Positions 1,219 through 30,604 of a stretch of 64,000 nt of DNA are shown here, in pieces. The position numbers and the translations under genes are program-made. Origin of the DNA: Mustelus asterias (taxonomy: Eukaryota). The notes under the pieces were generated by a model. That model was not told the DNA's origin, did not search any database, and was given only the letters and a program-made list of their open reading frames with translations. The stretch's first letter is position 1, and each line of letters starts with the position of its first letter. The stretch covers positions 2,480,001-2,544,000 of the forward strand of contig NW_027590121.1 of assembly GCF_964213995.1 (NCBI RefSeq). Reading direction: 5' to 3'.

Positions 1219-2308
1219 GAGATAGTAAAAGTTTTTACAAATATATAAAAAGGAAAAGAGTAGCTAAAGTAAATGTTGGACCCTTAGTAGATGAGAAGGG
1301 GGATTTAATAATGGGAAACGAGGAAATGGCTGAGGCCTTAAACAAGTTTTTTGTATCAGTCTTCACGGTAGAGGACACAAATAGCTTACCGAAAATTGAC
1401 GGTCATGGGACTGTAGGGGATGAGGTCCTTAAAATGATTACTATTACTAAAGAGGTAGTGCTTGGGAGGCTAATGGGACTAAAGGTAGACAAGTCCCCGG
1501 GCCCGGATGGAATGCATCCCAGGGGACTGAAAGAAATGGCAGAAGTAATAGAGGATGCGTTGGTTGTAATTTATCAAAATACGCTGGACTCTGGGGAAGT
1601 GCCGGCTGATTGGAAAACAGCTAATGTGACGCCACTGTTTAAAAAAGGAGGTAGACAAAAGGCGGGTAACTACAGGCCGGTTAGCTTAACGTCCGTAGTT
1701 GGGAAATTGCTGGAATTCATCATTAAGGAAGAAATAGCAGGACACCTGGAAAAAAATGGTTTGATCAAGCAGACGCAGCATGGATTCATGAAGGGAAAGT
1801 CGTGTTTGACAAATTTACTGGATTTTTATGTTGATGTAACGAGTGCGGTTGACAGAGGGGAACCAGTGGATGTGGTGTTTTTGGATTTCCAGAAGGCGTT
1901 CGATAAGGTGCCTCACAAAAGGTTGCTGCAGAAAATCAGGGTGCACGGAGTTAGGGGTAAAGTGTTAGCGTGGATTGGGGATTGGCTATCTAACAGGAAG
2001 CAGAGAGTTGGAATAAATGGGTGCTTTTCTGGTTGGCAGTTGGTGACTAGTGGCGTGCCACAGGGATTGGTGCTGGGGCCTCAAGTATTTACCATATGCA
2101 TAGACGATCTGGAGGAGGGGACCGAGTGTTGGGTAACAAAGTTTGCGGATGACACAAAGATGAGTGGGAAAGTGAATTGCGTGGAGGATGCGGTAAGTCT
2201 GCAGAGAGATTTGGATAGGCTAAGTGAGTGGGCGAGGATCTGGCAGATGGAGTATAGCGTTGGTAAGTGTGAGCTTATCCACTTTGGAAGGAATAATAGT
2301 AAAATGGA
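1219..2308 (+). mobile_element. CR1-clade LINE ORF2 fragment (reverse transcriptase), truncated at both ends
   Basis: KSPGPDG, NYRPVSLTS, QHGF..GKSCLTNL, LDFQKAFDKV, GVPQG and KFADDTK motifs. Confidence 0.95.
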
Positions 2309-2317
2309 AGCTGCAAT

Positions 2318-2332
2318 GCTGCCCCCTGTTGT
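2318..2332 (-). promoter_or_regulatory. CTCF-like site downstream of the V RSS
   Basis: ACAACAGGGGGCAGC versus consensus CCASYAGRKGGCRS (2 mismatches). Confidence 0.35.
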
Positions 2333-2507
2333 TCACTTCTCCCAGTCTCAGCATTGCAGAGTGTTTAAACAAGAATGGCACATTCAGCACCATGGAATGA
2401 GAACATTCGGACTAACTCTTCGTTATACAATTGTTCTGTTTGTATTAACAGTTCACAATCCAGGTCACAGATCTGATTCAGTGAGAGGAGGTGAGAGTGC
2501 CTTTGCA

Positions 2508-2546
2508 GGTTTTTGTACGGGCTCACTGCGCCTCTGTAGCAGTGTG
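2508..2546 (-). other. Recombination signal sequence, 23-bp spacer
   Basis: CACACTG + 23 nt (ctacagaggcgcagtgagcccgt) + perfect nonamer ACAAAAACC, directly after YHCALSP. Confidence 0.95.
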
Positions 2547-2853
2547 GGGCTCAGCGCACAGTGATACACGGCAGAGTCAGAGACATGGACCCCAGTGATA
2601 TTTAAAGGAACTGTTTTCTTGTCCTTGTCCAAATCAGCAGAAAACCGGTCAGGGAAATCTGGAGACTTTTCTCCGCCCCCCGTGCTATATTTCTGCAGTA
2701 AATATCTCGGAGCTTCCCCGGGATACTGGATGTACCAGAAGAGATTTGGAAAAGCATCCGTTGTTGTGTAATTACAATTCACTATTACGTTCAATCCTTC
2801 CTGAACCGTTAATTCAGCCGGGTCCTGGGAAACTGAATCTTGGCCATTGATTC
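2547..2853 (-). CDS. TRAV: T-cell receptor alpha/delta-type variable exon
   Basis: ttgcag acceptor; open frame QDSVSQ..VNCNY..LFWYIQYPGEAPRY..DRFSA..LNIT..DSAVYHCALSP with canonical Cys/Trp/Cys; followed by a 23-RSS. Confidence 0.9.
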
Positions 2854-2938
2854 CTGCAACAAAATGTAGAATGTGTGAGAAATCTGTGAACAAATATAAC
2901 CCATGAAACACACACTGAGGATCTGAGCTCAGACTCAC

Positions 2939-2984
2939 CGGGCAGCGTGGTCATTGTTATCAGTAAAGCACACAGGAGATACGT
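2939..2984 (-). CDS. TRAV: Leader exon of the TCR V gene (initiator position reads ACG)
   Basis: 46-nt phase-1 exon (T/M)YLLCALLITMTTLP-G ending at a GTGAGT donor; ggaaccACG at the expected ATG position. Confidence 0.8.
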
Positions 2985-3042
2985 GGTTCCTGATTGGACA
3001 GTAAGCAGCGACAATGTTTACAATAAGTTGCTGCCTCTAGTC

Positions 3043-3145
3043 TTATATCACAGAATGAACTCAGATCAGAGGCAGCTTCAAGTATTCAGAAACAGGGAGG
3101 CGTTTCTCAGTGCTGCGATTGGCTCATCTCCCTGAGCTGACGTCA
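3043..3145 (-). promoter_or_regulatory. V-gene promoter: TATA-like, CCAAT and CRE palindrome
   Basis: TATAAG ~3042-3047, CCAAT 3118-3122 (minus strand), TGACGTCA 3138-3145; CRE sites are typical of TCR V promoters. Confidence 0.6.
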
Positions 3146-3150
3146 GCTGC

Positions 3151-3474
3151 GAATCATAAAATCCCTGCAGTGCAGAAGGAGGCCATTCGCCCCATCGAGT
3201 CTATACCGGTCACAATACCACCCAGGCTCCACTCCCGCAACTCCATGTATTTACCCTGCGTATCCCCTGACGCTCGGGTCAATTTAGCATGGCCAATCAA
3301 CCTAACCTGCACATCTTTGGACTGTGGGAGGAAACAGGAGAACCCGAAGGGGACCCACGTAGACACTGGGAGAACATGCAAACTCAGACAGAAAGTGATC
3401 CGAAGCCGGAATTGAACCCGGGTCCCTGACACTGTGAGACAGCAGCGCTGACCATTGTGGCATCATGCCGCCCC
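3151..3474 (-). mobile_element. HE1-like tRNA-derived SINE
   Basis: A/B-box head, conserved body, CR1-like 3' tail. Confidence 0.85.
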
Positions 3475-3700
3475 GTAACCAGTGAACCAATCACTGTTAG
3501 TTAATGATTTAATATAGCTGGCACTTTCCAATCACATTCCTTCCCTGGCCGTAAACTTATTTCTAAAGTCTTTGCTCTCTCTCTGCTCTCTCCCACATCA
3601 TCACTTATTCTGTCTCATTAACTGGTTAACTCGCTTTCCTCAGAACTCAGTCCATCAATCTTTCTTAAGGCAGATCCTTTTTTCTAATTTAATCATTTAT

Positions 3701-4004
3701 GGGTGACACGGTGGCGCAGTGGTTCGCATTGTTGCCTCACAGCCCCAGGGACACGGGTTCGATTCCAGCCTCGGGTCACTGTCTCTGTGGAGTTTGCACT
3801 TTCTCACCGTGTCTGCGTGGGTTTCCTCAGGTGCTCCAGTTTCCCTCCACATTCCTAAACTGTGCAGGTTTGCTGGATTGGCCACGCAAAATTACCCTAA
3901 GTGTCAGGGGATAGCAGGGTAAATATGTGGGTTACGGGGATAGGGCCTGGGTGGGATTGTTGTCGGGACAGGCTCCATCCTGCATTGTCGGGATTCAATG
4001 ATTC
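3701..4004 (+). mobile_element. HE1-like SINE
   Basis: GGTGGCGCAGTGG A-box and GGTTCGATTCC B-box; body shared with other copies. Confidence 0.85.
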
Positions 4005-4124
4005 AGCAGCCTAACGTACAGGGATTAATGAGTAGCATCCAGGACTCAACATAATTAATAGTTAGTGCTGTAAGTATACCGGGGATAAGTAGTCACTCAA
4101 CTCTGCACCAGGAAATATTTCACG

Positions 4125-4580
4125 GACTCATAACATAGAAACTAGAAGCAGGAGCCTTCTCCGCCATTCATCGTAATCATAGCTGATCATGGAATTCAAT
4201 ATCCTGATCCTCCTTCCCCCTCGACCCCTTTAGCCCCAAGAGCTATATCAAATTTCTTCTTGAAATCAGACAACGTTTTGGCCTCAACTACATTCGGTGG
4301 TATTGAATTCCATACATTCAACACTCTCTGGATGAAGGAATTTCCCTTCACCTCAGTTTTTCCCTTATCTTCAAAAGATGACCCATGGTTCTGGATTCCA
4401 CCATTGGGAACAGTCTTCTGGATCTACCCTGTCGAACCCTGTTAGAATTTTATAAGTTTCTATGAGACCCCCTCTCACTATTCGAAACCGCAGTGAATAT
4501 AATCCTAACGGATTTAATCTCTCCTCATATGACAGAGCTGCCATCCCAGGAATCAGCATAGTAAATCTTCACTGTACCCC
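4125..4580 (-). mobile_element. Old CR1 3' end fragment
   Basis: LSYEERL..LGLYSL..RGGLIETYKIL motif. Confidence 0.8.
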
Positions 4581-4689
4581 TCTATTCCCCAAATAGAAAA
4601 GCTCTGATTTCAATCAGTTATTATTTCTGCTCCACGGACTTGAAAATGGAACAATTCTGAAGCTGCATTTGATAATAGATCACTTTTAA

Positions 4690-4918
4690 AATGTGTCGCC
4701 GGGCAGATAGGCACCGAATCCAGAATTTTTCTAAGTACAGATTAAGGAAGTTATTCACCCGGGGTAATCTGCAGATTTTGTGCGGATGGGATCGGAGAAT
4801 GGTTGGATTTGATCCGGGAATAATAGGATGGCAAATGTGACATTTCACAACACTGACAATGGCTGAGCTCAGTGGGGGAATATTATTCAGCTGGGGCTGT
4901 ATTGTGGCCTTCATTTCC
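4690..4918 (-). pseudogene. Possible decayed TCR V relic
   Basis: Patches resemble the intact V (AAATCTGCAGATTACCCC, KSADYP, versus KSPDFP; Y.PG..P; DS..YLC-like end), with frameshifts. Confidence 0.3.
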
Positions 4919-5658
4919 TGCGCATTTTCGTTGAGATCCGACTCTTTTTCTCTGACCCTGAAACGTCTGCGTCACTTTTTGTATGAGGCCCGCGGGAGCC
5001 TCATTCACTGTGGGTCTCAGTGGGAATCAAATTGTTGTCTAATTGTCCCAGCAGATAACAGGTTCCTTTGAACTCTCCAGCTGCTACTTTAATGCAGACT
5101 TTAACCAATTTATTTTGAGCTGGTTTCTGTTCAATAAACTGGCACTGACACACAAACACATTAAAATATTTTAGACTTTTCTGCATTTTCAGTCTGGAAA
5201 TCTAATCCTGCCATTTCACTCTCAGTCAGGAACAGATCCCAGTTTTGCACCAATCTCTGATTTAGCAGCATGCTTCCAGCATTCACTGTTGTTCTTCCTG
5301 ACTCTAAACACAGTTGTAAAGGAACTTCTGTTCCTGGTCTAGGAGCGCTGAAACATAGAAGGGAGTGACTGAGATTCTTGCACATCTCAGGATTAAACCA
5401 CACGGGTACTTTGCTGTCGTGAAGAGAGACGAGGAAGAGCAAAGTGCTGTTTGTCCCTCTGTGACCCTGAAGGACTGCGTCCTGTTTGCCATATGATCCA
5501 CCCCCGATTGTCTTTTCTGAGCTCCAGCCTGGTGATGTTAAACAGTCAGGTGGGAAAGACAAAAATCTACAACAATTTTAAAAAACAAAGCTGGTCTATT
5601 TCATATTTATTCAGAATATTAAACCTCAACGGATGAAGACTGTCAGAGTGAACACGAT

Positions 5659-6639
5659 TCAGTCCTGGATATGATTAACAGCATCATTAAGAGTAGAATC
5701 CAAACCTTGCAGTCGTTTGTGAACTCGCTGGTGTGTTAGCAGGTGGGATGACTGAATAAATCCCTTTCCACAGACATTACAGGTGAACGGCCTCTCCCCA
5801 GTGTGAACTCGCTGGTGTTTCAGAAGATAAGATAAATGAGAAAATCCCTTCCCACAGACAGAGCAGGTAAGTGGCCTCTCCGCACTGTGAACTTTCTGGT
5901 GTGTCAGCAGGTTGGATGACTGACTGAATCCCTTCCCACACACAGAGCAGGTGAACGGCCTCTCCCCAGTGTGAACTCGCTGGTGATTCAATAAGTTGGA
6001 TGAACGAGTGAATCCCTTCCCACAGTCTGAGCAGGTGAAGGGCCTCTCCCCAGTGTGAATTCTCTGGTGGTTCAATAGGGCAGATGGACGGCTGAATCCC
6101 TTCCCACACACACAGCAGGTGAATGGCCTCTCCCCAGTGTGAGCATATTGGTGCGTTAGCAGATCCTTTTTATTTTTAAAGCTCTTCGCACAGTGGGAAC
6201 AATTAAAAAGTTTGTTATCAGAGTGAACAAGTTGATGTGTCTGCAAGTGGGATGACTGAATGAATCCTTTCCCACACACAGAGCAGGTGAACGGTCTCTC
6301 CCCAGTGTGAATTCGTTGGTGTGTCAGCAGATCCTTTTTGCATTTAAAACTCTTCTCACAGTCAGAACATGTAAACATTCTCTCATCAGTGTGAACAAGT
6401 TGGTGTGTCACAATGTGGGATGAGCGAGTGAATCCCTTCCCACACACAGGGCAGGTGAACGGCCTCTCCCCAGTGTGAACCCGTTGGTGAGTCAGAAGGT
6501 TGTATGAATGGGTGAATCCCTTCCCACAGACGGAGCAGGTGAACGGTCTCTCCCCAGTGTGACTGCGCCGATGAACTTCCAGTTGTGATGGGAAACCGAA
6601 TCCCTTCCCACAATCCACACATTTCCACGGTTTCTCCAT
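5659..6639 (-). CDS. C2H2 zinc finger protein, 11 fingers, no KRAB
   Basis: gcaccATGG start; 11 CxxC-x12-HxxxH units, most with TGERPF-type linkers. Confidence 0.9.
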
Positions 6640-7449
6640 GGTGCGGGTGTCCTTGTGTTTCTCCAGGTTGGATGATCAGTTCAAGCCTCATCCACACACA
6701 CAACATACACGTAGTTTCACCCTGCTGTGAACTGTGATGTTTTTTCAGGCTGTGTAACTGGTTAAAGCTCTTTCCACATTCAGTTCACTGGAACACTCTC
6801 ACTCGGGTGTGTGTTTGTCTCGATGCTTTTCCAGTCACAGTGATGTTTAATTTCTTTGCCCACAGGCAGAACAGACAAATATTTCTCTTTCTATATTCAA
6901 AGACCAATGATATTCAGCTCCGAAGGAACTGAATGACTTTGTCAGATGTGATGTCCGGTTTGAATTTTCTGTCTGCCAATCTTTCACTTCCAATATCCTG
7001 TAAAAACAGTTTAGAAAAGTCATCACTGTCAGAACACGATACAAACTCTGAACAGACAATTCTAGTTCGTCTGGAACATTTTTTCCTCTCTTGTTCCCCC
7101 AAATCTGTAAATCTCCGTCCCACACACTCTCCCTCTTCCCTGGGCTGAAATCCAAACCCATCTCTACCATTTCTTTCCTCCACTCCCAGTTTTCTCCCTC
7201 CCTCTCCTCTGTCTGGGTTCAGTTCTCCAGCTCCTGTCTGCAGACTGACAATAAAACCAATGGGTCTTATTGGGGATGTTGGGGCCTCCAGCGGGTGTTT
7301 GTGAATCCTTCCCGCCCAACTCCCAGGGTTTCCTTCCTTCCCAGAGATCAGAGTCCTCATTGATTTGAGGCCAAAGTGTAACCTCTTATTTATTGTCCCC
7401 CTCCCCCATCCTCTGATGTGAACCATCCTCCAGTGGCTGAGCCAGGATG

Positions 7450-10571: not shown

Positions 10572-11918
10572 TCACTCATGAGCATTTTGGTGTCTCAGCA
10601 GGGCGGATGAAACTCTGAAACCCTTCCCACACTGAGAGCAGGTGAATGGTCTCTCCCCAGTGTGAACTCGCTGGTGTGTCCGCAGGGTGGATAATTGACT
10701 GAACCCCTTCCCACACTGAGAGCAGGTGAACGGTCTCTCCCCAGTGTGAACTCGCTGGTGAGTCCGCAGGGTGAATAAATCAGTGAATCCCTTCCCACAC
10801 TGAGAGCAGGTGAACGGTCTCTCCCCAGTGTGAACTCGCTGGTGAGTCCGCAGGGTGAATAAATCAGTGAATCCCTTCCCACACTGAGAGCAGGTGAACG
10901 GTCTCTCCCCAGTATGAAGGCGCTGGTGCGTCTGCAGGTTAGATAATTGACTGAACCCCTTCCCGCACTGAGAGCAGGTGAACGGTCTCTCCCCAGTGTG
11001 AACTCGCTGGTGCTTCTGCAGGTTGGATAATTGACTGAACCCCTTCTCACACTGAGAGCAGGTGAACGGCCTCTCCCCAGTGTGAACTCGCTGGTGAGTC
11101 CGCAGGGTGAATAAATCAGTGAATCCCTTCCCACACTGAGAGCAGGTGAACGGTCTCTCCCCAGTGTGAATTCGCTGGTGGGTCTCCAGCTTAGCTAATT
11201 GACTGAACCCCTTCCCACACATAGAGCAGGTGAAAGGCCACTCCCCAGTGTGAACTCGCTGGTGTCTCCGCAGAGTGGATAAATCAGTGAATCCCTTCCC
11301 ACAATGAGAGCAGGTGAACGATCTCTCCCCAGTGTGAATTCGCTGGTGCTTCTGCAGGTTAGATAATTGACTGAACCCCTTCTCACACTCAGAGCAGGTG
11401 AACGGCCACTCCCCAGTGTGAACTCGCTGGTGAGTCCGCAGGGTGGATAAATCAGTGAATCCCTTCCCACACTGAAAGCAGGTGAAAGGTCTCTCCCCTG
11501 TGTGAACTCGCTGGTGTCTCTGCAGGTTAGCTAAATGACTGAACCCTTTCTCACACTGAGAGCAGGTGAACGGCCTCTCCCCAGTGTGAACTCGCTGGTG
11601 TCTCTGCAGGTTAGCCAATTGACTGAACCCCTTCTCACACTGAGAGCAGGTGAACGGTCTCTCCCCAGTGTGAACTCGCTGGTGTGCCTGCAGGCTGGAT
11701 GACCGAGTGAATCCCTTCCCACACTGAGAGCAGGTGAAGGGCCTCTCCCCAGTGTGAGCTCGCTGGTGTCTCTGCAGCTGGGATACCCGAGTGAATCCCT
11801 CCCCACACTGAGAGCAAGTAAATGGTCTCTCCCCAGTGTGGCTGTGCCGATGATCTTCCAGCTCTGATGGGGCTCTGTATCTCTTCCCACAGTCCCCACA
11901 TTTCCATGGTTTCTCCAT
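10572..11918 (-). CDS. C2H2 zinc finger protein, 16 fingers
   Basis: ATG of MEKPWKC at 11918; 16 intact fingers. Confidence 0.9.
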
Positions 11919-13070
11919 GGTGCAGGTGTTCTTTCCTTTCTCTTCAGTTGAACACTCGTCCACACACAGAACAGTCCCCCCACCCCCGCTGTGAATGGTG
12001 TGATATTTATTGCTGTGTAACTGGTTAAAGCTCTTGAGTCAATGCACTAGAACACACTCACTCCAGTGTTGCAGCGTGTTGGCACTTTTCCAGTCACACT
12101 GATGTTTGAAATCTTTTCAAGTCACCAGACCGGACAACCATTTCTCCTTGATTTAAAGGCCGATGATATTCAGGTCCCGAGGAATATGACTCTGTCACAT
12201 CTAGACACAACGTCTGAGATTTCGGTCTGTGATTCCTCTTTCAATTTCCTGTAAAACAAGTTTGCAGAGGTCATCAGTGTCAGTGCAGGATAGAAATTCA
12301 GAACAGACAATTCTAATTTCTATGGAACATTCTTTCCTCCCTCCAGACTCGAAACATTGGCTCTATTCTCTCTCTATCTGGGGGATAGCGTGGGAAATGA
12401 TGCTGCGGTAGATCAGCCAATTCTCAATGAATGGTTGAGGCAGTTCGATGGGCTGAATGGCCAACCGCAGCTCCTGTTTCTTATGATTTGTGTGTGGTGG
12501 ACAGGAAGCAGTGAGCATGGATCTGTCAATCAGCCTCAATCAGTACCTTCAGGAGAATTGGGAGGGTGAATATTAGATACAGCAGAGTGAGAATGGAGGG
12601 AGAGTGTGTGGGATCGAGATTCACAGCTTTGGGGATGAGAGAGGAAAGAATGTTCATTGGAAATTAGAATTGTCTGTTCTGAATTTCTATCCTGTGCTGA
12701 CACTGATGATGTTTGTAAATTCCTTTTGCAGGATATCAGAAGGTGAAGATTTAAAGACGAATATTAAACCAAACCTCACATCAAAATCTAACATAGTCAC
12801 TCAGTTCATTGGGACCTGAATATCATCGAGCTTTGAATCTAGAATGGAAATGTTTCTCTGCTCTGTCTGCTTCAGGAGATTTTAAACATCAGTGTGACTG
12901 GAAAAGCACCGAGACACACACACTGAAACATGCACACACCTGAGTGACTGTGGAAAGAACTTTAACCAGTTAAACAGCCTGAAAATACATTGCAGCAGAG
13001 AGACCGCACCCATGTTTTGTTGTAACTGAACTGATTGTCAAGCTTGGAGAGTCACAAGGACACTCGCACC

Positions 13071-13895
13071 ATGGAGAAATTGTGTAAATGTGGGGACTGT
13101 GGGAAAGGATTCAGGTTCCCATCTGCACTGGAAACTCATCGGCGCAGTCACACTGGAGAGAGACCATTCACCTGCTGTGTGTGTGGGAAGAGATTCACTC
13201 AGTTATCCCATTTACAAACACACCAGGGAGTTCACACTGGGGAGAGGCCATTCACCTGCTCTGTGTGTGGGAAGAGATTCACTCAGTTATCCCATTTACA
13301 AACATACCAGGGAGTTCACACTGGAGAGAGACCGTTCACCTGCTGTGTGTGTGGGAAGAGATTCACTCAGTTATCCCATTTACAAACACACCAGGGAGTT
13401 CACACTGGGGAGAGGCCATTCACCTGCTCTGTGTGTGGGAAAGGATTCACTCGGTTAAACAATCTGCTGACCGACCAGCGCATTCACACCGGGGAGAGAC
13501 CGTTCACCTGCTGTGTGTGTGGGAAGGGATTCACTCAGTTGCCCAACCTGTTGAGCCACAAGGTCACTCACACCCAAGACAGACCCTTTAAATGCTCTGA
13601 CTGTGGGAGTGGCTTCAAAAGCTCTCAAGAACTGATGGTCCACCAACCCATTCACACTGACGAGAGACTGGTTAGCTGCTCTCACTGCACAAAGAGGTTT
13701 AGGAGGTCATCCACGTGGCAGAGACACCAGCGACTTCACACCGGGGACAGACCGTTCACCTGCTCCGTGTGTGGGAAATGGATTCAATCGGTCATCCAAC
13801 CTGCAGCGACACCAACAAGTTCACAAGTGATTGCAGGGGTTGGATTCTTTCTCTCTCAATCTTTCTCTCTCTCTCTCTCTCAGCAGATTCGATGA
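13071..13895 (+). pseudogene. Degenerating C2H2 ZNF (9 finger units)
   Basis: His->Tyr in finger 3, His->Asp in finger 5, frameshift in finger 9. Confidence 0.75.
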
Positions 13896-14210
13896 ATGAT
13901 TGAATCCCTTCCCACAAGTGGAGCATATGAACGGTCTCTCCCCGGTGTGACTGCGTCGATGAGATTCCACCCCAGATGGGGCTCTGAATCCCTTCCCACA
14001 GTCTCCACATTTCCATGGTTTCTCCATGGTGTCGGAGTCCTTGTGTCTCTCCACAATCAGTGCACTGGAACACTCTGATACGGGTGTGAGAATCTCAGTG
14101 CTTTTCCAGTCAAAACCTCTCCTTCCGATATCCACTGAAAGCAGTTTACAAAAATCATCACTGTCAGCACATGGTAGAAATTCAAAACAGACAATTGTAG
14201 TTTCTATGGA
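13881..14210 (-). pseudogene. Truncated ZNF (ATG at 14027, ~1.7 fingers) ending in (GA)n
   Basis: [49 protein letters not shown] followed by a microsatellite. Confidence 0.8.
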
Positions 14211-14309
14211 ACATTCTTTAAATCTCCACCCACGCCCCTCACACATACACTCTCTCTCTCTCATTCCATTTAGCATTCTGCGGCACGGTGGCACAGTGGT
14301 TAGCACCAT

Positions 14310-14585
14310 CAGCTCCAAGTTCCCCTCCAACTCACACACCATCCTGACTTGCCTGCCATCCAGGACTAAGAGAACAGAAATGTTTTCCATATAAATACTG
14401 GGAAGTCTGAACCCATTGTCTTCAGTCCCCACGACAAACTCCACTCCCTGTCGGAGCCGGAACCAGGCTGTTCACAACCATGGTGAAATATTTCACTCCA
14501 GGATGAGCTTCCAGCCACATCATCATCAAGACTGCCTATTTCCACCTCAGTGACATCGTCCGACGCCACCCCAGTCTCAACTCAT
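14310..14585 (+). mobile_element. Old L2-like LINE fragment
   Basis: Degenerate RT C-terminal region (KTAYFHL-like). Confidence 0.45.
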
Positions 14586-15810
14586 TAGACCATAAGACAC
14601 AGTAACAGAATTAGGCCACTCGGCCCATCGAGTCTGCTCCGCCATTCAATCATGGCTGATATTTTTCTCATCCCCATTCTCCTGCCTTTTCCCCATAACC
14701 CCTGATCCCCTCATTAATCAAGAACCTATCTATCTCTGTCTTAAAGACACTCAATGACCTGGCCTCCACAGTCTTCTGCAGCAAAGAGTTCCACAGATTC
14801 ACCACTCTCTGGCTGAAGAAATTCCTCCTCATCTCTGCTTTAAAGGATCGGCCCTTTAGTCTGAGGTTGTGCCCTCTATTTCTAGCTGTTCCTACTCGTG
14901 GAAACATTCTCTCCACGTCCACTCTATCCAGGCCTTGCAGTATCCTGTAAGTTTCAATAAGATCCCCCCTCATCCTTTTAGACTCCAATGAGTACAGACC
15001 CAGAGTCCTCAACTGTTCCTCATAGGACAAGCTCTTCATTCCAGGGATCATTCTTGTGAACCTCCTCTGGACCTTTTCCAAAGCCAGCACATCCTTCCTT
15101 AGATATGGGGACCAAAACTGCTCACAATAGTCCAAATGGGGACTGACCAGAGCCTTACGCAGCCTCAGAAATATATCCCTGCTCTTGTATTCCAGGCCTA
15201 TCGACATGAATGCTAACATTGCATTTGCCTTCCTAACTGCCAACTGAACCTGCACGTTAACTTGAAGAGAATCTTGAACAATGACTTCCAAGTCCCTTTG
15301 TGTTTCTGATTTCCTAAGCATTTCTCCATTTAGAAAATACTTGTTGTCTCCATTCCTCCTTCCAAAGTGCAAAACCTCACACATTTCCACATTATATTCC
15401 ATCTGCCACTTCTTTGCCCACTCTTCTAACCTGTCCAAGTCCTTCTGCAGCCCCCCTGCTTCCTCAATACTACCTGTCCCTCGACATATCTTTGTATCAT
15501 CTGCAAACTTAGCAACAGTACCTTCAGTTCCTTCCTCCAAATCGTTAATGTATATTGTGAAAAGTTGTGGTCCCAGCACTGACCCCTGAGACACACCACT
15601 GGTCACCGGCTGCCATCCTGAGAAAGACCCCTTTATCCCCACTCTCTGCCTTCTGCCAGCCAATCCTCTATCCATGCCAGGATCTTACCCTTAACACCAT
15701 GGGCACTTAACTTATTTAACAGTTTCCTCTGCAGCACCTTGTCAAAGGCCTTCTGGAAATCTAAATAAATCAGGTCCACTAGTTCTCCTTTATCTAACTT
15801 CTTTGTTACC
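14586..15810 (-). mobile_element. CR1 LINE 3' half
   Basis: ORFs 14668-15675 and 15633-15810 with KFADDTK and CR1 C-terminus; 3' tail. Confidence 0.95.
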
Positions 15811-17610
15811 AGATATGATCTAAGGAGATCCATCAAAGATGCCAAAAGACAATACCGGACCAAGCTAGAGTCCCAGGCGAGCCACACCAACCCCCGCTGA
15901 CTGTGGCAAGGTCTGCAAGACATAACAGGCGACAAAATGAAGGCATGTAAAATTGCTGGCTCCAACGCACCTCTCCCTGATGAGCTCAATGCATTCGTTT
16001 TGAGCAAGAGGTCAGCGAGAGCATGCCCTCCACCCTGGAAGCCCTGGATGAACCTGTATCTGGGGTCTCCATTGCAGATGTCAGAGCAGCTTTCTTCAAG
16101 GTCAACCCACAGAAAGCAACTGGCCCGGATGGGATACCCGGATGTGCATTCAGATCCTGTGCGGATTAGCTGGCAGAGGTATTCACAGACATCTTCAACC
16201 TCTCTTTACAACAATCTGAGGTCCCTATCTGCTTCAAGAAAGATGACCATCATCCTGGTACCTAAGAAAAACCAAGCAGCGTGTCTTAATGACTATCGGC
16301 CGGTGGCTCTGACATCCATCATGATGAAGTCCTTCAAAAGGTTTGTCACGGTACGAATCAATTCCAGCCTCCCGGACTATCTGGATCCACTACAGTTTGC
16401 CTGCCGCCGCAACAGGTCCACAGCAGACGCCATTTCCCTGGCCCTGTACTCAACCTTGGAACAGCTAGATAACAAGGACACCTATGTCAGACTCCTATTT
16501 GTTGACTACAGCTCAGCCTTCAACACTATTAGTCCCACGAAACTCATCTCCAAACTCTGTGGCCTGGGTCTCGGCACCTCCCTCTGCAACTGGATCCTGA
16601 ACTTCCTAACTCACAGACCACAATCAGTAAGGATAGGCAACAACACCTCCTCCACGATCATCCTCAACACCAGTGCCCCACGAGGCTGTGTTCTCAGCCC
16701 CCTAACATACTCCTTCTACACCTATGACTGTGCGGCTAAATTTCCCTCCAATTCGATTTTCAAGTTTGCTGACGACACCACAGCACTGGGTCGGATTTCA
16801 AACAATGATGAGACAGAGTACAGGAATGAGATAGAGAACCTGGTGAACTGGTGCGGCAACAATAATCCCTCCCTCAATGTCAACAAAACAAAGGAGATTG
16901 TCATCGACTTGAGGAAGCATAAAGAAGAACATGCCCATGTCGACATCAATGGGGACGAAGTAGAAAGGGTCGAGAGTTTCAGGTTTTTAGGTATCCAGAT
17001 CACCAAAAACATGTCCTGGTCTCCCCATGTCGACACTCTTGTTAAGAAAGCTCACCAACGCCTCTACTTTCTCAGAAGACTATGGAAATTTGGCATGTCA
17101 GCTACGACTCTCACCAACCTTTACAAATGCACCATAGAAAGCATTCTTTCTGGTTGTAGCACAGCTTGGTATGGCTCCTGCTCTGCCCAAGACTGCAAGG
17201 ATCTACAAAAGGTTGTGAATGTAGCCCAATCCATCATGCGAACCAGCCTCCCATCCATTGACTCTGTCTACACTTCCCGCTGCCTCGGCAAAGCAGCCAG
17301 CATAGTTAAGGACCCCAAGCACCCCGACATTCTCTCTTCCACCTTCTTCCCTCGGGATAAAGATACAAAAGTCTGAGGTCACGTACCACCGACTCAAGAA
17401 TAGCTCCTTCTCTGCTGCTGTCAGTCTTTTGAATGGACTTACCTTGCATTCAGTTGACCTTTCTCTACACTCTCACTCTGACTGTAACACTACATTCTGC
17501 ACTCTCTCATTTCCTTCTCTATGAATGGTATGTTTTCTCTGTATAGCGCACAAGAAACAACACTTTTCACTGTATGTTAATACATGTGACAATAATAAAT
17601 CAAATCAAAA
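15811..17610 (+). mobile_element. Rex1/Babar-type LINE nested inside CR1
   Basis: ACLNDYRPVALTS, LDPLQFA, DYSSAFNTI and FKFADDT motifs; (AATCA)n tail. Confidence 0.85.
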
Positions 17611-17765
17611 GCTCCTCAAAGAACTCTAACAGATTTGTCAGACATGACCTCCCCTTGACAAAGCCGTGCTGACTCAGTCCTACTTTATCCTGCACTTCCA
17701 AGTACTCTGCGATCTCAGCTTTAATAATGGACTCGAAAATCTTGGCAATGACCAAAGTCGGGCGA
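17611..17765 (-). mobile_element. Upstream continuation of the interrupted CR1
   Basis: QHGFVKGRSCLTNLLEFFEE joins VTKKLDKG at 15810. Confidence 0.85.
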
Positions 17766-17772
17766 ATTTGGA

Positions 17773-17991
17773 ACCCTCACCCATTCCATTGTGACCTCAC
17801 ACTCCGACCCATTCCATTGTGACGTCACACCCTCACCCATTCCATTGTGACGTCACACCCTCACACATTCCATTGTGACGTCACACCCTCACATTCCATT
17901 GTGACGTCACACCCTCACCCATTCCATTGTGACGTCACACCCTCAGCCACTCCATTGTGATGTCACACTCACCCATTCCATTGTGACGTCA
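17773..17991 (+). repeat. ~28-bp minisatellite, 8 units, carrying TGTGACGTCACA
   Basis: ccctcacccattccattgtgacgtcaca units; 6 have a perfect TGACGTCA. Confidence 0.95.
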
Positions 17992-17999
17992 GGGCTTCA

Positions 18000-18620
18000 C
18001 TCTCCGATCACAATCCCTGCCGGCCTCCCACATGCAGCCTCAATGGCGGCAGTCAGCCCGGGTCTAACACTACAAGCTGCCGCTCCATTTGGTACAAAGC
18101 GGGGGACCGGGAAGTTCATTTCCGGGGTTTGGGTTTGAACAACATGTTGAGAAAGTCTCTCCACCCACCCGCCACATTTATCATTCCCCGCGCGCCGCCC
18201 TCTACCTCGTATTGATCTCGCTTCCGAGTTAAAACCGTCGGTCTGTCCGTCGCCATTACCCGCACTGCGCATGCGTCACGACCCGCCCCTCATTCACTGC
18301 GATTGGTTGGAGGACCAGTCGCTCCAGCGCGATCCTCCGGCCCCGCCCCCTCTTCCTATTGGTTCAGAGCTGTCGTCAATCAGTCCCCGGGCATTGTGAT
18401 GTGGAGCATGCGCAGTGTCATTGCTGGCCTTGGCGCTTGTTTGTCCCGGAGAAGCGGAGTCAGCGTTAGGCGGTGGCTGGGAGGATTTGGAAACACTTTG
18501 TGGATCCGCAAACCCTTCAGAATCATTGTCAGCTCCCTGGTTTGCAGCTGCGGGGCTTCTCCCTCCCTCCCTCCCGGGAACAGGCCCAGGTTAACGGCCC
18601 CATCCTGGCTCAGCCACTGG
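18000..18620 (+). promoter_or_regulatory. CpG-island promoter of the ZNF at 19398
   Basis: TGCGCATGCG (NRF1-like), GC boxes, ATTGG boxes. Confidence 0.65.
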
Positions 18621-19397
18621 AGGATGGTTCACATCAGAGGATGGAGGAGGGGGGACAATAAATAAGAGGTTACACTTTGGCCTCAAATCAATGAGGACTC
18701 TGATCTCTGGGAAGGAAGGAAACCCTGGGAGGTGGGCGGGGAGGATTCACAAACACCCGCTGGAGGCCCCAACACCCCCAATAAGACCCATTGGTTTTAT
18801 TGTCAGTCTGCAGACAGGAGCTGGAGAACTGAACCCAGACAGAGGAGAGGGAGGGAGAAAACTGGGAGTGGAGGAAAGAAATGGTGAGATGGGTTTGGAT
18901 TTCAGCCCAGGGAGGAGGGAGAGTGTGTGGGACAGCGATTTACAGATTTTGGGGAACAAGAGAGGAAAGAATGTCCCAGAGAAACTAGAATTGTCTCTTC
19001 AGGATTTCTATTCCGGACTGACGCTGATGACTTTTCCAAATTTTTTTTTACAGGATATTGGAAGTGGAGGATTGGCAGACAGAAAACGAACTGGCAAAGT
19101 CATTTTGTTCATTAGGAGCTGAATATCATTGGTCTTTGAATATGGGAGGAGAAATGTTTGACTCTTCTGTCTGTCGGCAAAGATTTTAAACATCAGTGTG
19201 ACCGGAAAAGCATTGAAACAAACACACACCCGATTGAGAGTGTTCCAGTGAACTGACTGTGGAAAGAGCTTTAACTAGTCCACAGCCTGAAAAAACATCA
19301 CACAGTTCACAGCAGGGTGAAACTACATGTATGTTGTGTGTGTGGACGAGGTTTCAACTGATCATCCAACCTGGAGAAACACAAGGGCACCAGCACC

Positions 19398-20285
19398 ATG
19401 GAGAAACCGTGGAAATGTGTGGAGTGCGGGAAAGGATTCGGTTTCCCATCACAACTGGAAGTTCATTGGTGCAGTCACACTGGGGAGAGAGCGTTCCCCT
19501 CCTCCGTTTGTGGGAAGGGATTCACCCATTCATACAACCTTCTGACTCACCAACGGGTTCACACTGGGGAGAGGCTGTTCACCTGCCCTGTGTGTGGGAA
19601 GGGATTCACTCGCTCATCCCACATTGTGACACACCAACTTGTTCACACTGATGAGAGACTGTTTACATGTTCTGACTGTGAGAAGAGTTTTAAATGCAAA
19701 AAAGATCTGCTGACACACCAATGCATTCACACTGGGGAGAGACCGTTCACCTGCTCTGTGTGTGGGAAAGGATTCATTCAGTCATCCCACCTGCAGACAC
19801 ATCAACTTGTTCACTCTGACAAACATTTTAATTGTTCAGACTGTGAGAAGAGCTTTAAAAACAAAAAGGATCTGTTAATGCACCAATATACTCACACTGG
19901 GGAGAGGCCATTCACCTGCTGTGTGTGTGGGAAGGGATTCAGCCGTCCATCTGCCTTATTGAACCACCAGAGAATTCACACTGGGGAGAGGCCCTTCACC
20001 TGCTCCGACTGTGGGAAAGGATTCATTAATTCATCCAACCTTCTGATACACCAGCAGCTCCATACAGGGGATCGACCGTTCACCTGCTCTGAATGTGGGA
20101 AGGGATTCACTCGTTCATCCAACCTATTGAACCACCAGCGAGTTCACACTGGGGAGAGGCCGTTCACCTGTAATGTCTGTGGAAAGGGATTTATTCAGTC
20201 ATCCCACCTGCTAACACACCAGCGAGTTCACAAGGGACTGCAAGGTTTAGATTCTACACTTATTGATGCTGTTAATCATATCTAG
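19398..20285 (+). CDS. C2H2 zinc finger protein, 10 fingers (finger 2 lacks its first Cys); paralogue of 5659-6639
   Basis: gcaccATGG start, finger array, high similarity to the inverted copy. Confidence 0.85.
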
Positions 20286-21189
20286 GTCTGAATCATGTTC
20301 ACTCTGACTTTTTTCTTCTGTTGAGGTTTGATATTCTGAATAAATGTGAAATAGACATTTGATTGAATCATTGTTGTAGATTTTTGTCTTTTCCATTTGA
20401 GTGTTTAACGTCACCAGGCTGGAGCTCAGAAAGGGCAATCTGAGGGAGGATCATACAGTAGGAACAGAACTTCATTCTTGACCCAGTCCTTCAGGGTCAC
20501 GCTGAGAGGGACAAACAGCACTTTGGTCTTTTTCGTCACTTTTCACTGACAGCAAAGTCCCCGTGTGGGTGAATCCTGAGGTGTGTAAGAAATGTGTCCC
20601 AGTCGTTCTTTTCCATGGTTCCGAGACACGGAACAGAAGCTCCTTTACAACTGTGTTTAGAGTCAGGAAGAACAATGGTGAATGCTGGAAACGTGCTGTC
20701 AAAGATTGGTGTAAAACTGGGATCTATTCCTGACTGAGAGTGAAACGGCAGGTTTAGGTTTCCAGACTAAAAATGCAAAAAAGTCTAAAACATTTTAATG
20801 TGTGTGTGTGTCAGTCCTAGTTTATTGAACAGAAACTGGCTTAAAATAAATTGGTTGAAGTCGGCATCAAAGTAGCAGCTGGAGACGTTCAAAGGAGCCT
20901 GTTAACTGCTGGGACAAATAGACAACAATTTGATTCCCAGATAGAGAAGGAGCTGCAGTGTGTGTCCAAGAATTCTCAGTTTTGTTGTGTGCTTCCCATC
21001 CACTATCCTTCTAAATAAACCTCCCTCCTATCAGCCTTTAACCATTATAACAGAACAGAGAGAAGCTGAGCAGCAACAGAGTCCTGACTGATCATTTAAG
21101 AATGAGTGATGTGTTCAGCTGAAGTTTCCTGTTGGTAGTTTTCTGGGTGATCTCCTTATTTTGATCATTCTCAGTGACCCCTGGGTGTG

Positions 21190-21650
21190 AACCTGCTCTC
21201 CTCTCTTTCAGACATTCACTCACTTAACATCTCCTCTCTCTCAGAATCTCAATCATTCAACATCTCTCATCTCTCTAACACTCACTGAACGTTTCTCTCT
21301 CTCTCCAGGCATTCACTCACACTTACCTCACCTTCCAGCTCTCTTACACTCTAACCTCGCTCCTCTCTCACATTCACTTAACCTCTCTCCTCTCAGAAAC
21401 TGTCTTCATCACTTAATGTCTCTCTTTCTTTCAAACACTCACTCATTTAACCTTCCTATTTCAGATAATGCTTAAACTTATTCATTGTTTTCTCTCTCTC
21501 ATTACCTCTCTCTGAAAAAGCACAAACACACTTCATCTCTCTTCGCTGTCTGAGAAAACATCTAATTGATGGAGATTCAATCCTCTCTGTTTCTCTCTCC
21601 CACTTCCTCTGACAGGCCCTGACTCACTTTAAATCTCCTCTTTTCTAATA
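21190..21650 (+). repeat. CT-rich low-complexity tract
   Basis: Pyrimidine-skewed degenerate ctcact/ctctct repeats. Confidence 0.7.
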
Positions 21651-21800
21651 ACCCTCTTTGGGAAAACTCATTTGTTCTCTAATTCCTCCTCATTTCTCCC
21701 AGTGATGACCCTCAGTCCATCTCCCAATTCAGTGAATGTGTTAAAAATCCATAATAATCTCCTTTCTTTATTGTTTAAAATGGGAATGGAGGTGAATGTA

Positions 21801-22155
21801 ATGCTGAGACTGGCAGCAATCTGTGTGGTTGTTCTTGATGCTGTCAGAGTGAGTTCACCCTCACAGGCAGGAAGACTGTTCACGGTGATAACATCAAACT
21901 GACGCCGGCTGTTTCATTCTCAGGTATCACAACTTCCTGTTTCTCTGCTGCCGGTTCCAAACCTCACATCTCACTTCTGAGCAGAAAATAAATCCAGGGA
22001 CCACAATCTGGTGAGAACATCTGTCAATGTGACCTATATCTGTCCACAGAGTCAGGGCAGAGTCACACAGATCACATTGTGGTGACATTTACAAATGAGC
22101 CTGTTATTTCTGTTCAGAGTTTCCATTCGCAGATATAGCCAGCTGTGTCTGTGGA
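21801..22155 (+). pseudogene. Possible decayed IgH-like V gene
   Basis: Leader MLRLAAICVVVLDAV + GTGAGT; ~75-nt intron with branch point and ttctcag; patches SC..AG, Q..PG..W, QGRVT, LQMS, ADIASCVC. Confidence 0.35.
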
Positions 22156-23389
22156 TCAATTACTGAGTTCCCTCTGTTCCCCGTAGCTGGGAACTGATAG
22201 CCTGCTCCCTTATATTGTATATCATTCTCTCTGTATTGCTTGTTTCTTCTATTTCTCAGCTTTTATCTTTGACCTTCCTCATCTTACTGCTTTTTAAAAT
22301 CTTCCTCAATTTTTCTCTCAGTCTTTCCATCTCTCTCTTCCTCTGTAACTTTCTCAGGCTCTGTGTGTTCCTATTTAATCGACATGTTCAAAATCATGAA
22401 GAGTTTCTGATTGATTACAGAAGGAAAAACAGGGAGAGAAGCAGAAAAACCCAGCAGGTCCGGCGGCATCTGTTCAGAGAGTTAACATTTTGAGTCCATA
22501 TAATTCTTCAGGGCAGGAAAAACATCGGTTATCCATCTTAGTTTAGGGAATGTGATGGGGAGATTTAATAGAGGTGTTTCAAATGACAAATGATTTATGA
22601 TAGTTTCTCTCCATTGACACTATTTCCCAGGAGCAGGAAGTCTGTTGATGGAGAGAATCTATTTCCCAGGTGCAGGAGGGTCTGTAAGCAGAGGATACAG
22701 AGATTTAATATAATTGACAACAGAACTGGAGGGGGTGATAAGGAGAATTTTTAACACAATAACTGGATATGATCTGGAATGCACAAACTGACAGGTGCTA
22801 GAAGCAGGTTTAATAGTAACTTTCAAAGGGAATTGGATAAATACTTGCAGAAGGTAAATTGGCAGAGTGATGGTCAATAGGATTAATTGGACAGTTCACT
22901 CATCTTTGTGACATTCTGAATGTTTCTCTCCTGAGGTTTTAATATTTGATCTTTTCAGTCACAATGTGTCTCAAACAGAAAATTAAACCATTGGGTTTGA
23001 TGAGCTGTCAGATCTGTTTCCTGTGTGTAACTTGAGAACTGCAGATAACCATGAGAAGGAACTGATTATTTTCAATTCCTCGAACAGATACACCTCAGAT
23101 ATCAGAAATCCCTGGAGTTCCCCATGTCCTCATTATTCTCACCTCGAGTATAACAGCTCTCAGTCAGGCCGAGTCAGTCGCATGTGTCTCTGTCATGATG
23201 TTTCCACTTGTATTTTATCACTCACCTCCCAGTGACACTCACCATAACACAGACACCTTAAAATATCATTGTTCCCTTGCACTTTGTCCTCCTATTATAA
23301 TCAAATGTTTGTTGGGGCTCTTGTCTCCCTTAATGTCAGATTATCTGCAGTTAAAATGACCTCAGAGACACTGAAACCGACCTCAGTGA

Positions 23390-23600
23390 TTATTATACCA
23401 GACTCCAATCAGCCCCAGGAGCTGCAGTTGTAAAATACAGCAGAATTGGAATAACAGACAGGTTATTGTCTGATACTGACAGTGGCAGAGTAACACACAC
23501 TGGAATCTAAACACATTATATCAATGGACCATGACTCACTCACACTGTCAAATGAAACCTAAACTTTGGTTCTGGTGCACGAGATACTGACTGTATTACC
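23390..23600 (+). pseudogene. Possible decayed V-J-like Ig-superfamily exon
   Basis: GITDR..DSG patch followed by TTTGGTTCTGGTGCACGA..CTGACTGTATTACC (FGSGAR..LTVLP). Confidence 0.25.
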
Positions 23601-23799
23601 ATTACATTGGATCCAATGCTGTGTTCACTAACATACTGCAACGTGACTCTTATTATTTAAACAAACGTTGTATTTGTTACACTCAGAGTAAGTCAGTGCT
23701 TTGCTGTGTTGTCTCTGTGCTCCATCCCCACTCTGATTGTATTGGAGCCTGTGTGTGTCATTGTTACACTGAGACTCTGTCACTGATTATTGGACAAAC

Positions 23800-24260
23800 A
23801 GCAAGTCACCATCACAATGTCCGGCTGATTGACGGCAGCGCGAACCAATGGGAAGAGGAGGCAGTGCTGGAGGACCGATCTGGAGCGGTCGGTCCTCCAA
23901 CCAATCGGAGCGAACGAGGGGCGGGGCCTACTTTGACTCGAGCATGCGCAGTGTGAGTAATGGCGATGGAAAACGGCTTTTGTTTTGGACTCGGAAATCT
24001 GTTCGAGGTGATTGGCGGTACGGAGAGAGCAATGGATCGTCCAGGTGGGTGGAAGCGCTGCGTAACCATGTTGTGAGAGTCGCAAAATGCGGAAAAGAGC
24101 TTCCCGGACCCAGTTTGTACCGAGCAGGGCTGCAGTTCCTCATGTTCGTTTCGGGTTAACGTTCGCCATCTTTATTGGGGGCAATAGGCAGCAGTGCGCA
24201 TGTGCGGCCGCCATCTTTGTAGAGGGCAATGTTGTCAATCAGTGGGAGGCGCTTGTTCCC
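23800..24260. promoter_or_regulatory. CpG-island promoter-like block related to the ZNF promoters
   Basis: Homologous to 7640-7890; GCCGCCATCTT (YY1-like), GCATGCGCA, CCAAT. Confidence 0.6.
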
Positions 24261-25196
24261 CAGTGTTCAGAATGGAGACAACTTGTCCATCAAACTGCAT
24301 CAACCCTCTGAGTCCCAATGTCTTATTGATGAGGCAGAGCGGTGACAGAGAAGGAAAAAGGAAGGGAAAGTAAAACAGTAAATGCTGGAAAGTCTCAGCA
24401 GATCTGACATCATCTGTGGAGAGAGAATCGAACCAACGTTTCGAGACTGGATAACCCATAGTCAGAGCTTGTACACGTGTAAACAGAGCATGTAAACCTT
24501 GACACCTCCATGTACCCTTGTACACCTCTGTCAATCTACTTTGCTCCAAGGAGAACAACCCCAAGTTATCCAGCCTAACAAAGAACAGTACAGCACAGGA
24601 AACAGGCCGTTCAGCCCTCCAAGCCTGTGCCGCTCCTTGGTCCAACTAGACCAATCGTTTGTATCCCTCCATTCCATAACATTGAGGTGTATAAAATTCT
24701 GCGGGGCACAGATAGGGGGGAGAGGAAGGAACTTTTCTCTTTAGTAGAGAGGTCAATAACCAGGGGCCTGGATTTAAGTTCAGGGGCAGGAGGTTTATAG
24801 GAGATGAGAGGGAAAGCTTTTTCACTCAGACGGTGGTGGGAATCTGGAACTCACTGCCTGAAAGGGTGGTAGAGGTGGGAATCATCATAGCATTTAAGAA
24901 GAATTTAGATAAGCTCTTGAAATGCCATAATATGCAAGGTTACACATCACGTGTGGAAAATGAGATTATAATAGAACGGTGCTTGATGGCCGGCACAAAC
25001 ACGATGGGCCGAAGGGCCTCTTTCCATGCTGTAAAACTCTATGATCACCCACGTTGGCAGCAAGTTCAATATCATCATCATTTGATAGAGGTGGACAAGA
25101 TTCTGACAGGTTTAGATAAGGTGGACAAAGAAAATCTGTTCCTATTAGCTGATGGGACAAGGATGACAAGCAAAGTTAAAGTTTTGGGTGGGATCA

Positions 25197-25541
25197 CAGA
25201 ATCAGAGAAATCCTACAGTGCAGAAAGAGGCCATTCGGCCCATTGAGTCTGCACCAACCACAATCCCACCCAGGCCCTACCCCCATATCCCTTCATATTT
25301 ACCCGCTAATCCCTCTAACCTACGCATCTCAGGACTCTAAGGGGCAATTTTTAGCATGCCCAATCAACCTAACCCGCACATCTTTGGACTGTGGGAGGAA
25401 ACCAGAGCACCTGGAGGAAACCCACGCAAACACGAGGAGAATGTGCAAACTCCACACAGACTGTGACCCAAGCCGGGAATCGAACCGAGGTCCCTGGAGC
25501 TGTGAAGCAGCAGTACTAACCACTGTGCTACCGTGCTGCCC
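25197..25541 (-). mobile_element. HE1-like SINE (same insertion as 41811-42135, copied by duplication)
   Basis: Same flanks and orientation. Confidence 0.85.
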
Positions 25542-25889
25542 ATGTGAGGAAGAATATTTTGATGCAGCGAATGGTAATGACCTGGAACTCGCTGCCTACG
25601 AGGGTGGAGGAAGTGGAGACAATAAACAATTCCAAAGGAAATTGGATGGGCATTTGGGAGGTTTCAAACAGAAATGCTGACTAAATATCTCTGAACTTCC
25701 TCACACCCGGTCACTCTGTGATCCTTGTGAAATTTGAAACGAGGTATTCGCAACAAGACTCAAAGAGCATCAGCCCACTGGAGGCAAAGTTGTGAGACCG
25801 GCCAGTCCAGCAGAAAGAAACCCTCCGACCCTTCCCATTGACCAATATAATTGAGAGCAGAAACAATAACAGCAGAATCGACCCCTGGA

Positions 25890-27330: not shown

Positions 27331-27339
27331 TTTTTAAAA

Positions 27340-30600: not shown

Positions 30601-30604
30601 AGCT

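What the first reader, a model, noticed from the sequence alone, without database searches (positions are those of the whole stretch)
2508..3145. Recombination-competent TCR V gene inside a zinc-finger cluster
A complete promoter-leader-V-23RSS unit sits among ZNF genes, with no intact J or C segment in 64 kb. Either the TCR alpha/delta V array is interleaved with ZNF genes, so V(D)J recombination would delete or invert ZNF genes in T cells, or this V is an orphon moved by the same segmental duplications.
Basis: partly seen in the sequence, partly recalled or inferred. Interest (0 to 1): 0.7.

Follow-up and report, generated by a model that had tools for sequence, protein, structure and literature searches.

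The report
Shark T-cell genes interleaved with zinc-fingers
This is a real shark T-cell-receptor gene segment that has lost its start codon, one of 13 near-identical copies in a repeatedly duplicated zinc-finger block, in a genome where zinc-finger genes sit directly in front of both alpha-chain joining arrays, so T cells would likely delete or flip zinc-finger genes whenever they build an alpha chain.

Summary
The V gene is real: CRE promoter, leader exon, intron, open TCR alpha/delta V exon and a good 23-RSS, among nine zinc-finger ORFs, with no J or C nearby. It is not complete: the leader start codon reads ACG, where 12 twins and 19 array paralogues read ATG. It lies in a 3.8-kb piece of the V array fused to zinc-finger DNA and then copied to 13 places that differ by 0-11 of 3,071 bases. 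The breakpoint is not a RAG signal end. Its scaffold carries an IgM cluster and other V pieces but no TCR C. Elsewhere the assembly holds two J-alpha/C-alpha cassettes, each preceded by zinc-finger genes rather than by C-delta; on one scaffold ten V genes, four zinc-finger ORFs, 140 J and C-alpha follow in order. An ATG-intact twin lies 3.2 Mb upstream of the second cassette. Use of these copies is untested. Scattered V genes among IgM clusters are published for sharks, and zinc-finger loss by rearrangement is known from human IGL. The scan had already noted the 19 C-delta copies, and V genes among zinc fingers, on other DNA.

The parts
2508..2546 (-). 23-spacer recombination signal: heptamer 2546-2540 (one mismatch, the norm for this V family), spacer 23, consensus nonamer 2516-2508
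2547..2853 (-). TCR alpha/delta V exon, open frame, conserved Cys-Trp-Cys core
2854..2938 (-). 85-nt leader intron, GT..AG, phase 1
2939..2984 (-). Leader exon whose first codon is ACG instead of ATG (base 2983); the next in-frame ATG (2954-2952) lies after the hydrophobic core
3043..3145 (-). Promoter: CRE palindrome 3145-3138 (present in all 13 copies), CCAAT 3122-3118, TATA-like 3047-3043
4974..5022 (-). Orphan 23-RSS (heptamer 5012-5006) with the last 8-10 coding bases of the neighbouring array V; right-hand junction with 2-nt microhomology to a zinc-finger 3' flank
1221..2309 (+). Truncated LINE reverse-transcriptase piece shared with array paralogues; left-hand junction of the insert at about 1221 cuts it
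1221..5022 (.). Whole 3.8-kb fragment derived from the TCR alpha/delta V array (93-95% identical to array copies)
5659..6675 (-). Nearest C2H2 zinc-finger ORF (11 fingers), co-oriented, part of the duplicated block
10572..51003 (.). Eight further C2H2 zinc-finger ORFs (3-16 fingers) on both strands

Best explanation
This is a shark TCR alpha/delta V gene with an intact recombination signal but an ACG in place of its start codon, sitting in a 3.8-kb piece of the V array that is joined to zinc-finger DNA and present in 13 near-identical copies, and it likely belongs to a dispersed V pool whose joining to J-alpha or D-delta segments would delete or invert zinc-finger genes. Shown: the anatomy, both junctions, the 13 copies, the ACG, and zinc-finger ORFs directly 5' of both J-alpha arrays. 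Inferred: (1) the fragment arrived by an ordinary break-and-join event (2-nt microhomology, no target duplication), once, and was then amplified very recently inside a block of at least 35 kb; (2) scaffold C89 is an unplaced part of the antigen-receptor complex represented by C71; (3) RAG could still cut this copy, but a join would likely give a chain without a signal peptide or a poorly translated one, so this copy is a pseudogene or near-pseudogene, while the 12 ATG twins would give normal chains; (4) loss of intervening zinc-finger genes is likely tolerated as in human IGL, because the other allele and very many paralogues remain.
For: Anatomy and ACG. Junctions. 13 of 150 scored matches are 100% identical in protein, share the 151-bp junction exactly (13 of 40 listed matches), differ by 0-11 of 3,071 bases, form one clade 3.3% from the nearest of 19 array paralogues; block 99.3% identical to C71 over at least 35 kb. 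C89 carries a V-D-D-J-C IgM cluster at 1.50-1.51 Mb, other TCR V pieces, and begins with 26.7 kb that is 98.8% collinear with the flank 5.6 kb behind a C-delta gene on C71. C546: 10 open V exons (6 with a scanned 23-RSS), 4 zinc-finger ORFs of 10-16 fingers, 140 J-like segments, C-alpha. C71: 10 zinc-finger ORFs, 33 J-like segments, second C-alpha, no N in 290 kb and no V match in 18.21-18.44 Mb. ATG twin on C71 at 15.165 Mb, same strand as that cassette, 3.2 Mb upstream. Published context: PMC12227049, PMC9282919.
Against: No rearranged transcript or junction was seen. C89 has no C-alpha, C-delta or delta D-J match, and its place on the C71 chromosome is inferred only from shared blocks. Many other dispersed V copies examined are broken by stops or frameshifts, as expected of debris. 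The 13 copies are too young to show selection (one synonymous and no replacement difference among their V exons). C546 has a 200-N gap at 129,550-129,749 between the zinc-finger genes and the first J, although both sides are collinear with the gap-free C71 cassette. The 3.2 Mb between twin and cassette on C71 was not read and may contain gaps (one gap seen at C71 9.055 Mb). Contigs of 4 of 4 public runs read ATG at 2983, which fits a 1-in-13 variant but also a consensus error. Leaders of the C546 V genes and expression of the zinc-finger ORFs were not checked.
Confidence: 0.55

Rival explanations
1. Inert orphons. The 13 copies are passengers of zinc-finger segmental duplications, too far from D/J segments or in closed chromatin, and never rearrange; only V genes in the dense arrays are used.
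For: No TCR C or delta D-J on C89; start codon lost here; many dispersed V copies broken; no sign of selection; five leader and four promoter-region substitutions are private to the clade among the copies compared.
Against: 12 of 13 copies keep ATG, promoter and RSS; twins share scaffolds with C genes on C71 and C154; both J-alpha arrays already have zinc-finger genes upstream, so alpha joining has to cross them.
Confidence: 0.3
2. Assembly inflation. Unpurged haplotypes and mis-joins multiply the copies and the C genes, and the ACG is a consensus error.
For: Most copies are on unplaced scaffolds; some pairs differ by 0 bases; contigs of 4 of 4 runs read ATG; gap inside C546.
Against: Two haplotypes can at most double a count; copies differ by up to 11 bases and have different block ends; the two C-alpha exons differ at many residues and the C-delta copies differ among themselves; the zinc-finger/J-alpha/C-alpha run on C71 has no gap in 290 kb; public runs of two samples hold pieces of the insert with 0-2 differences.
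Confidence: 0.12
3. Germline RAG transposition moved the fragment, using the orphan RSS at its right end as a signal end.
For: The right breakpoint falls only 8-10 bases from a heptamer, with the nonamer pointing inwards.
Against: RAG cuts exactly at the heptamer (established), yet coding bases remain; the left end lies inside a LINE with no 12-RSS; the empty-site flank does not resume, so there is no target duplication; in 15 other loci tracked, no other array/zinc-finger boundary was seen at a heptamer, at coarse resolution.
Confidence: 0.03

Closest known systems
Elasmobranch antigen-receptor complex, AgRC (Flajnik et al. 2025, PMC12227049; seen: abstract, sections 6 and 15, table S1 in full, term searches)
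   Same: IgM clusters linked to TCR alpha/delta; V exons of alpha/delta type lie between IgH clusters; table S1 lists such V genes from 8.2 to 17.1 Mb of one great white shark chromosome.
   Different: No mention of zinc-finger genes (0 hits in text and supplements). Table S1 shows C-delta next to C-alpha in stingray and catshark; here there are two C-alpha cassettes with zinc-finger genes in front and 19 C-delta matches.
Human IGL locus with ZNF280A, ZNF280B, PRAME and GGTLC2 between V genes (PMC9282919, whole letter read)
   Same: Non-immune genes, including zinc-finger genes, lie between V and J-C and are lost by normal V-J joining.
   Different: There only distal V use removes them; here zinc-finger ORFs stand between every V found and both J-alpha arrays, and V genes are co-amplified with them.
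Canonical TRA/TRD locus, 5'-trdc-(traj)n-trac-3' (PMC10322711, passages seen)
   Same: V with 23-RSS, large J-alpha arrays with 12-RSS, and the T8G9 V-end signature described there is present in this V.
   Different: Neither J-alpha array has C-delta in front of it within the 137 kb (C546) or 160 kb (C71) read.
Separated TRA and TRD with two TRDC-J-V clusters in the newt Pleurodeles waltl (PMC12698447, title and passages seen)
   Same: TRD is not nested in TRA and C-delta is duplicated.
   Different: Two copies there against 19 matches here; no zinc-finger interleaving mentioned (0 hits).
Human TR/IG orphons such as TRBV/OR9-2 (recalled, no call)
   Same: V segments moved by duplication, often with an intact RSS and small defects.
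   Different: Those lie on other chromosomes with no D/J/C; these copies share scaffolds or duplicated blocks with IgM clusters and TCR C genes.

Membership tests
TCR alpha/delta V gene segment | V-set domain closest to TCR alpha V, with Cys-Trp-Cys core | tested here: met
TCR alpha/delta V gene segment | Split leader with phase-1 intron and 3' 23-RSS | tested here: met
TCR alpha/delta V gene segment | Close paralogues in dense V arrays linked to delta D-J-C | tested here: met
   93-95% paralogues on C420 and C436; C436 continues into D, J and C-delta
Functional V gene (IMGT sense, recalled) | Initiation codon on the leader exon | tested here: not met
   ACG at 2984-2982; ATG in 12 of 13 copies and 19 of 19 paralogues
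Functional V gene (IMGT sense, recalled) | Found rearranged and expressed | not testable with these tools
   no RNA holder listed
Orphon (V outside its locus, unlinked to D/J/C) | No D/J/C of its own locus on the same chromosome | tested here: inconclusive
   none on scaffold C89, but C89 is unplaced, shares blocks with C71, and twins on C71 and C154 share scaffolds with C genes
RAG-transposed fragment | Ends exactly at heptamers of a 12/23 pair, with target-site duplication | tested here: not met
Elasmobranch AgRC | IgH clusters and TCR alpha/delta segments on the same scaffold | tested here: met
   IgM cluster on C89; IgM C exons on C420; C1-set matches, V, C-delta and C-alpha on C71
Elasmobranch AgRC | Linkage to PSMB5, UrIg2, IgW and IgNAR | not tested
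   not searched
Canonical nested TRA/TRD locus | C-delta directly 5' of the J-alpha array | tested here: not met
   zinc-finger ORFs, not C-delta, precede both arrays

The most novel reading that the evidence does not exclude
In this shark the TCR alpha/delta locus has dissolved into a multi-megabase mosaic: two independent J-alpha/C-alpha cassettes, about 19 delta D-J-C miniclusters and IgM clusters, all bathed in zinc-finger genes, with V genes spread and multiplied by zinc-finger duplications and actually used. Every alpha rearrangement removes or inverts a V-dependent set of zinc-finger genes, so each T-cell clone carries its own somatic zinc-finger gene dose, and copy number of one V (13 twins) can bias the repertoire.
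Probability: 0.3. Interest if true: 0.75.

Novelty: new variant of a known kind. Interest (0 to 1): 0.5.

Why it matters
The flagged V alone is a start-codon mutant in a young duplication and is ordinary. The layout it leads to is not: TCR alpha is described as one array with C-delta in front of J-alpha across jawed vertebrates, whereas this assembly shows two alpha cassettes preceded by zinc-finger genes and many delta cassettes. If real, it blurs the line between the cluster layout of shark antibodies and the single-array layout of TCR genes, shows how far V(D)J joining can reach through unrelated genes, and gives a direct test, because the 13-copy family has private bases that can be looked for in a repertoire.

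Tried and rejected
Expression: no RNA holder listed; the four runs laid are contigs of unknown kind and say nothing on expression. Copy number by read depth was not calibrated and stays open. Pfam DUF1968 found no C-alpha (5 matches, none over cut-off). A transmembrane DNA pattern gave chance-level counts (51 against 42 control) and was mis-phased; C genes were found instead with parts of two shark proteins. A longer-protein search gave 5 hits, none with a C region. RAG transposition and clean insertion with target duplication were rejected. A single C2H2 pattern between the last J and C-alpha on C71 spans a stop and was dropped. A supposed relic of the C-delta 3' flank before J-alpha on C546 is a common repeat. 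The V-like match at C71 17.38 Mb showed no V motif or RSS in my scan. The C24 copy (87% protein) lacks the leader start and RSS and was left out of the 19 paralogues; one 92% paralogue (C591 197.8 kb) was not fetched. Nine paper searches returned no listing that describes zinc-finger genes inside a shark TCR locus; the library lacks most subscription papers, and older reports of several TCR constant genes in horned shark are recalled only, not checked. A by-sequence look-up of earlier findings was blank.

Full report
Observation. On the minus strand the window holds a CRE palindrome (3145-3138), CCAAT and TATA-like boxes, a leader exon (2984-2939), an 85-nt GT..AG intron, an open V exon (2853-2547) and a 23-spacer RSS (2546-2508). 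The protein is a V-set domain (E 1.4e-17) whose best solved relatives are TCR alpha chains. An RSS this good occurs once in the window and 0 times in 200 shuffles. Nine ORFs with three or more C2H2 fingers surround it. No J motif was found on either strand, and no other V in the window or in 60 kb of flank. The nearest named relatives are shark proteins, and the linked IgM cluster is of the shark V-D-D-J-C type.

The defect. The first leader codon is ACG. All 12 other near-identical copies and all 19 array paralogues examined have ATG at this place. The next in-frame ATG lies ten codons on, after the hydrophobic core, so a joined gene would likely give a chain without a signal peptide, or a little normal chain from a near-cognate start (established knowledge, not tested). 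Contigs of 4 of 4 public runs read ATG there; contigs drop rare variants, so this neither confirms nor refutes the ACG.

How it got there. Window 1221-5022 matches the dense V arrays at 93-95%. It holds part of a LINE shared with six array copies, the V, the spacer, and the RSS of the next V with only 8-10 coding bases left. At 5021/5022 it joins the 3' flank of a zinc-finger gene through a 2-base microhomology; at about 1221 it ends inside the LINE. Four unfilled copies of the zinc-finger flank were read, and their continuation does not reappear on the left, so this is a rearrangement junction and not an insertion with target duplication. The break is near but not at the heptamer, the other end has no RSS, and other boundaries tracked in 15 loci did not fall at heptamers, so RAG transposition is unlikely.

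Amplification. 13 of the 150 scored matches are identical in protein, on 13 scaffolds, and the same 13 share the 151-bp junction exactly. They differ by 0-11 of 3,071 bases, form one clade and lie 3.3% from the nearest paralogue. The shared block with C71 is 99.3% identical over at least 35 kb and includes several zinc-finger genes; C87, C105 and C154 share at least 10 kb on the left side at 99.6-99.8%. The V therefore travels with zinc-finger genes. Some pairs may be alleles.

The scaffold. The window is C89:2,480,001-2,544,000 of a 2.83-Mb unplaced scaffold. C89 has no C-alpha, C-delta or delta D-J match. It does carry an IgM cluster about 1 Mb away, TCR V pieces at 22-196 kb, 1.07-1.09 Mb and 2.02 Mb, and its first 26.7 kb is 98.8% collinear with DNA that begins 5.6 kb behind a C-delta gene on C71. 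A delta cassette may thus lie just off its left end, with this V downstream and inverted; that is inference.

The locus. Two C-alpha genes were found, on C546 and on the 20.4-Mb C71, with clearly different exons. C546 reads: 10 open V exons at 32-63 kb (7 plus, 3 minus; 6 with a scanned 23-RSS; leaders not checked), four zinc-finger ORFs of 16, 11, 10 and 10 fingers at 68-94 kb, 140 J-like segments at 138-237 kb, C-alpha at 240 kb (the J test is loose, up to 4 nonamer mismatches). A 200-N gap at 129.6 kb separates the zinc-finger genes from the first J, but both sides are collinear with the C71 cassette. C71 reads, without a gap in 290 kb: ten zinc-finger ORFs at 18.22-18.36 Mb, 33 J-like segments, C-alpha, with no V match in 18.21-18.44 Mb. 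The ATG-intact twin of our V lies at C71 15.165 Mb on the same strand, 3.2 Mb upstream. C-delta gave 19 matches, three on C71; 18 of the 19 have a delta D-J probe match 12-22 kb upstream, and three cassettes read show D, J and C. None stands in front of a J-alpha array in the stretches read.

Mechanism. If the assembly is right, a V-to-J-alpha join must cross zinc-finger genes: plus-strand V genes would delete them on a circle, minus-strand ones would invert them (follows from the 12/23 rule). For the 13-copy family itself use is plausible but unshown; I give 0.55 to a usable dispersed pool, 0.30 to inert passengers, 0.12 to assembly inflation and 0.03 to RAG transposition.

Comparison. Linkage of IgH clusters with TCR alpha/delta, and V exons scattered among them over megabases, is published (PMC12227049: abstract, sections 6 and 15, table S1); that paper does not mention zinc-finger genes. 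Loss of zinc-finger genes by normal V-J joining is known in human IGL (PMC9282919, whole letter). The usual order C-delta, J-alpha, C-alpha was used as the rule in a 302-species survey (PMC10322711, passages); a newt separates TRA from TRD (PMC12698447, passages). Groups of identical germline V genes were also seen in nurse shark (PMC5931798, passages). bioRxiv supplements were not visible and none was needed. Earlier scan notes on this genome had already reported the 19 C-delta copies and V genes among zinc-finger genes; I found the count independently before seeing them. In the excerpts shown I saw no note of two alpha cassettes each preceded by zinc-finger genes or of the start loss.

Verdict. 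The flagged segment is a start-codon mutant in a very young duplication. The architecture around it is a new variant of a known kind, awaiting read-level and repertoire confirmation. Interest 0.5.

Noticed in passing
G000:C546:32,000-242,100 and G000:C71:18,210,001-18,432,000: Two distinct J-alpha/C-alpha cassettes (140 and 33 J-like segments), both preceded by zinc-finger ORFs instead of C-delta; their 5' flanks are homologous at about 80%.
   Followed up: yes
19 places, e.g. G000:C436:226,387, C71:7,138,105, C154:717,876: Nineteen C-delta matches, 18 with a delta D-J probe match upstream; C436 also has a V resembling the NAR-TCR supporting V.
   Followed up: partly
G000:C420:65,000-68,100 (L077): IgM constant exons lie on a scaffold of dense TCR V genes, 11 kb from a V.
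   Followed up: no
G000:C24:38,776,876-38,777,145 (L029): A truncated copy of this V family without leader start or RSS on a 63-Mb scaffold, a true dead orphon.
   Followed up: partly
G000:C546:120,814-121,302: Three 12-spacer RSS upstream of the first canonical J, without an FGXG motif behind them; possibly decayed or atypical 5' J segments.
   Followed up: no
G000:C71:15.82 Mb, C89:1.086 Mb, C140, C270, C466, C888, C106: A second dispersed V family in seven near-identical copies; the two read appear frameshifted at the 5' end.
   Followed up: partly
window 8748-8822 (minus): A tRNA-Val(GAC) call between zinc-finger genes.
   Followed up: no
window 1017-1210: G-rich variable tandem repeat beside the left junction; it accounts for most length differences among the 13 copies.
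   Followed up: no
window 5802-7887 and 18161-20232: Two zinc-finger genes of the window are an inverted pair 91% identical over 2.1 kb.
   Followed up: no
G000:C232:311,000-311,900: A zinc-finger piece sits inside an otherwise dense V array.
   Followed up: no
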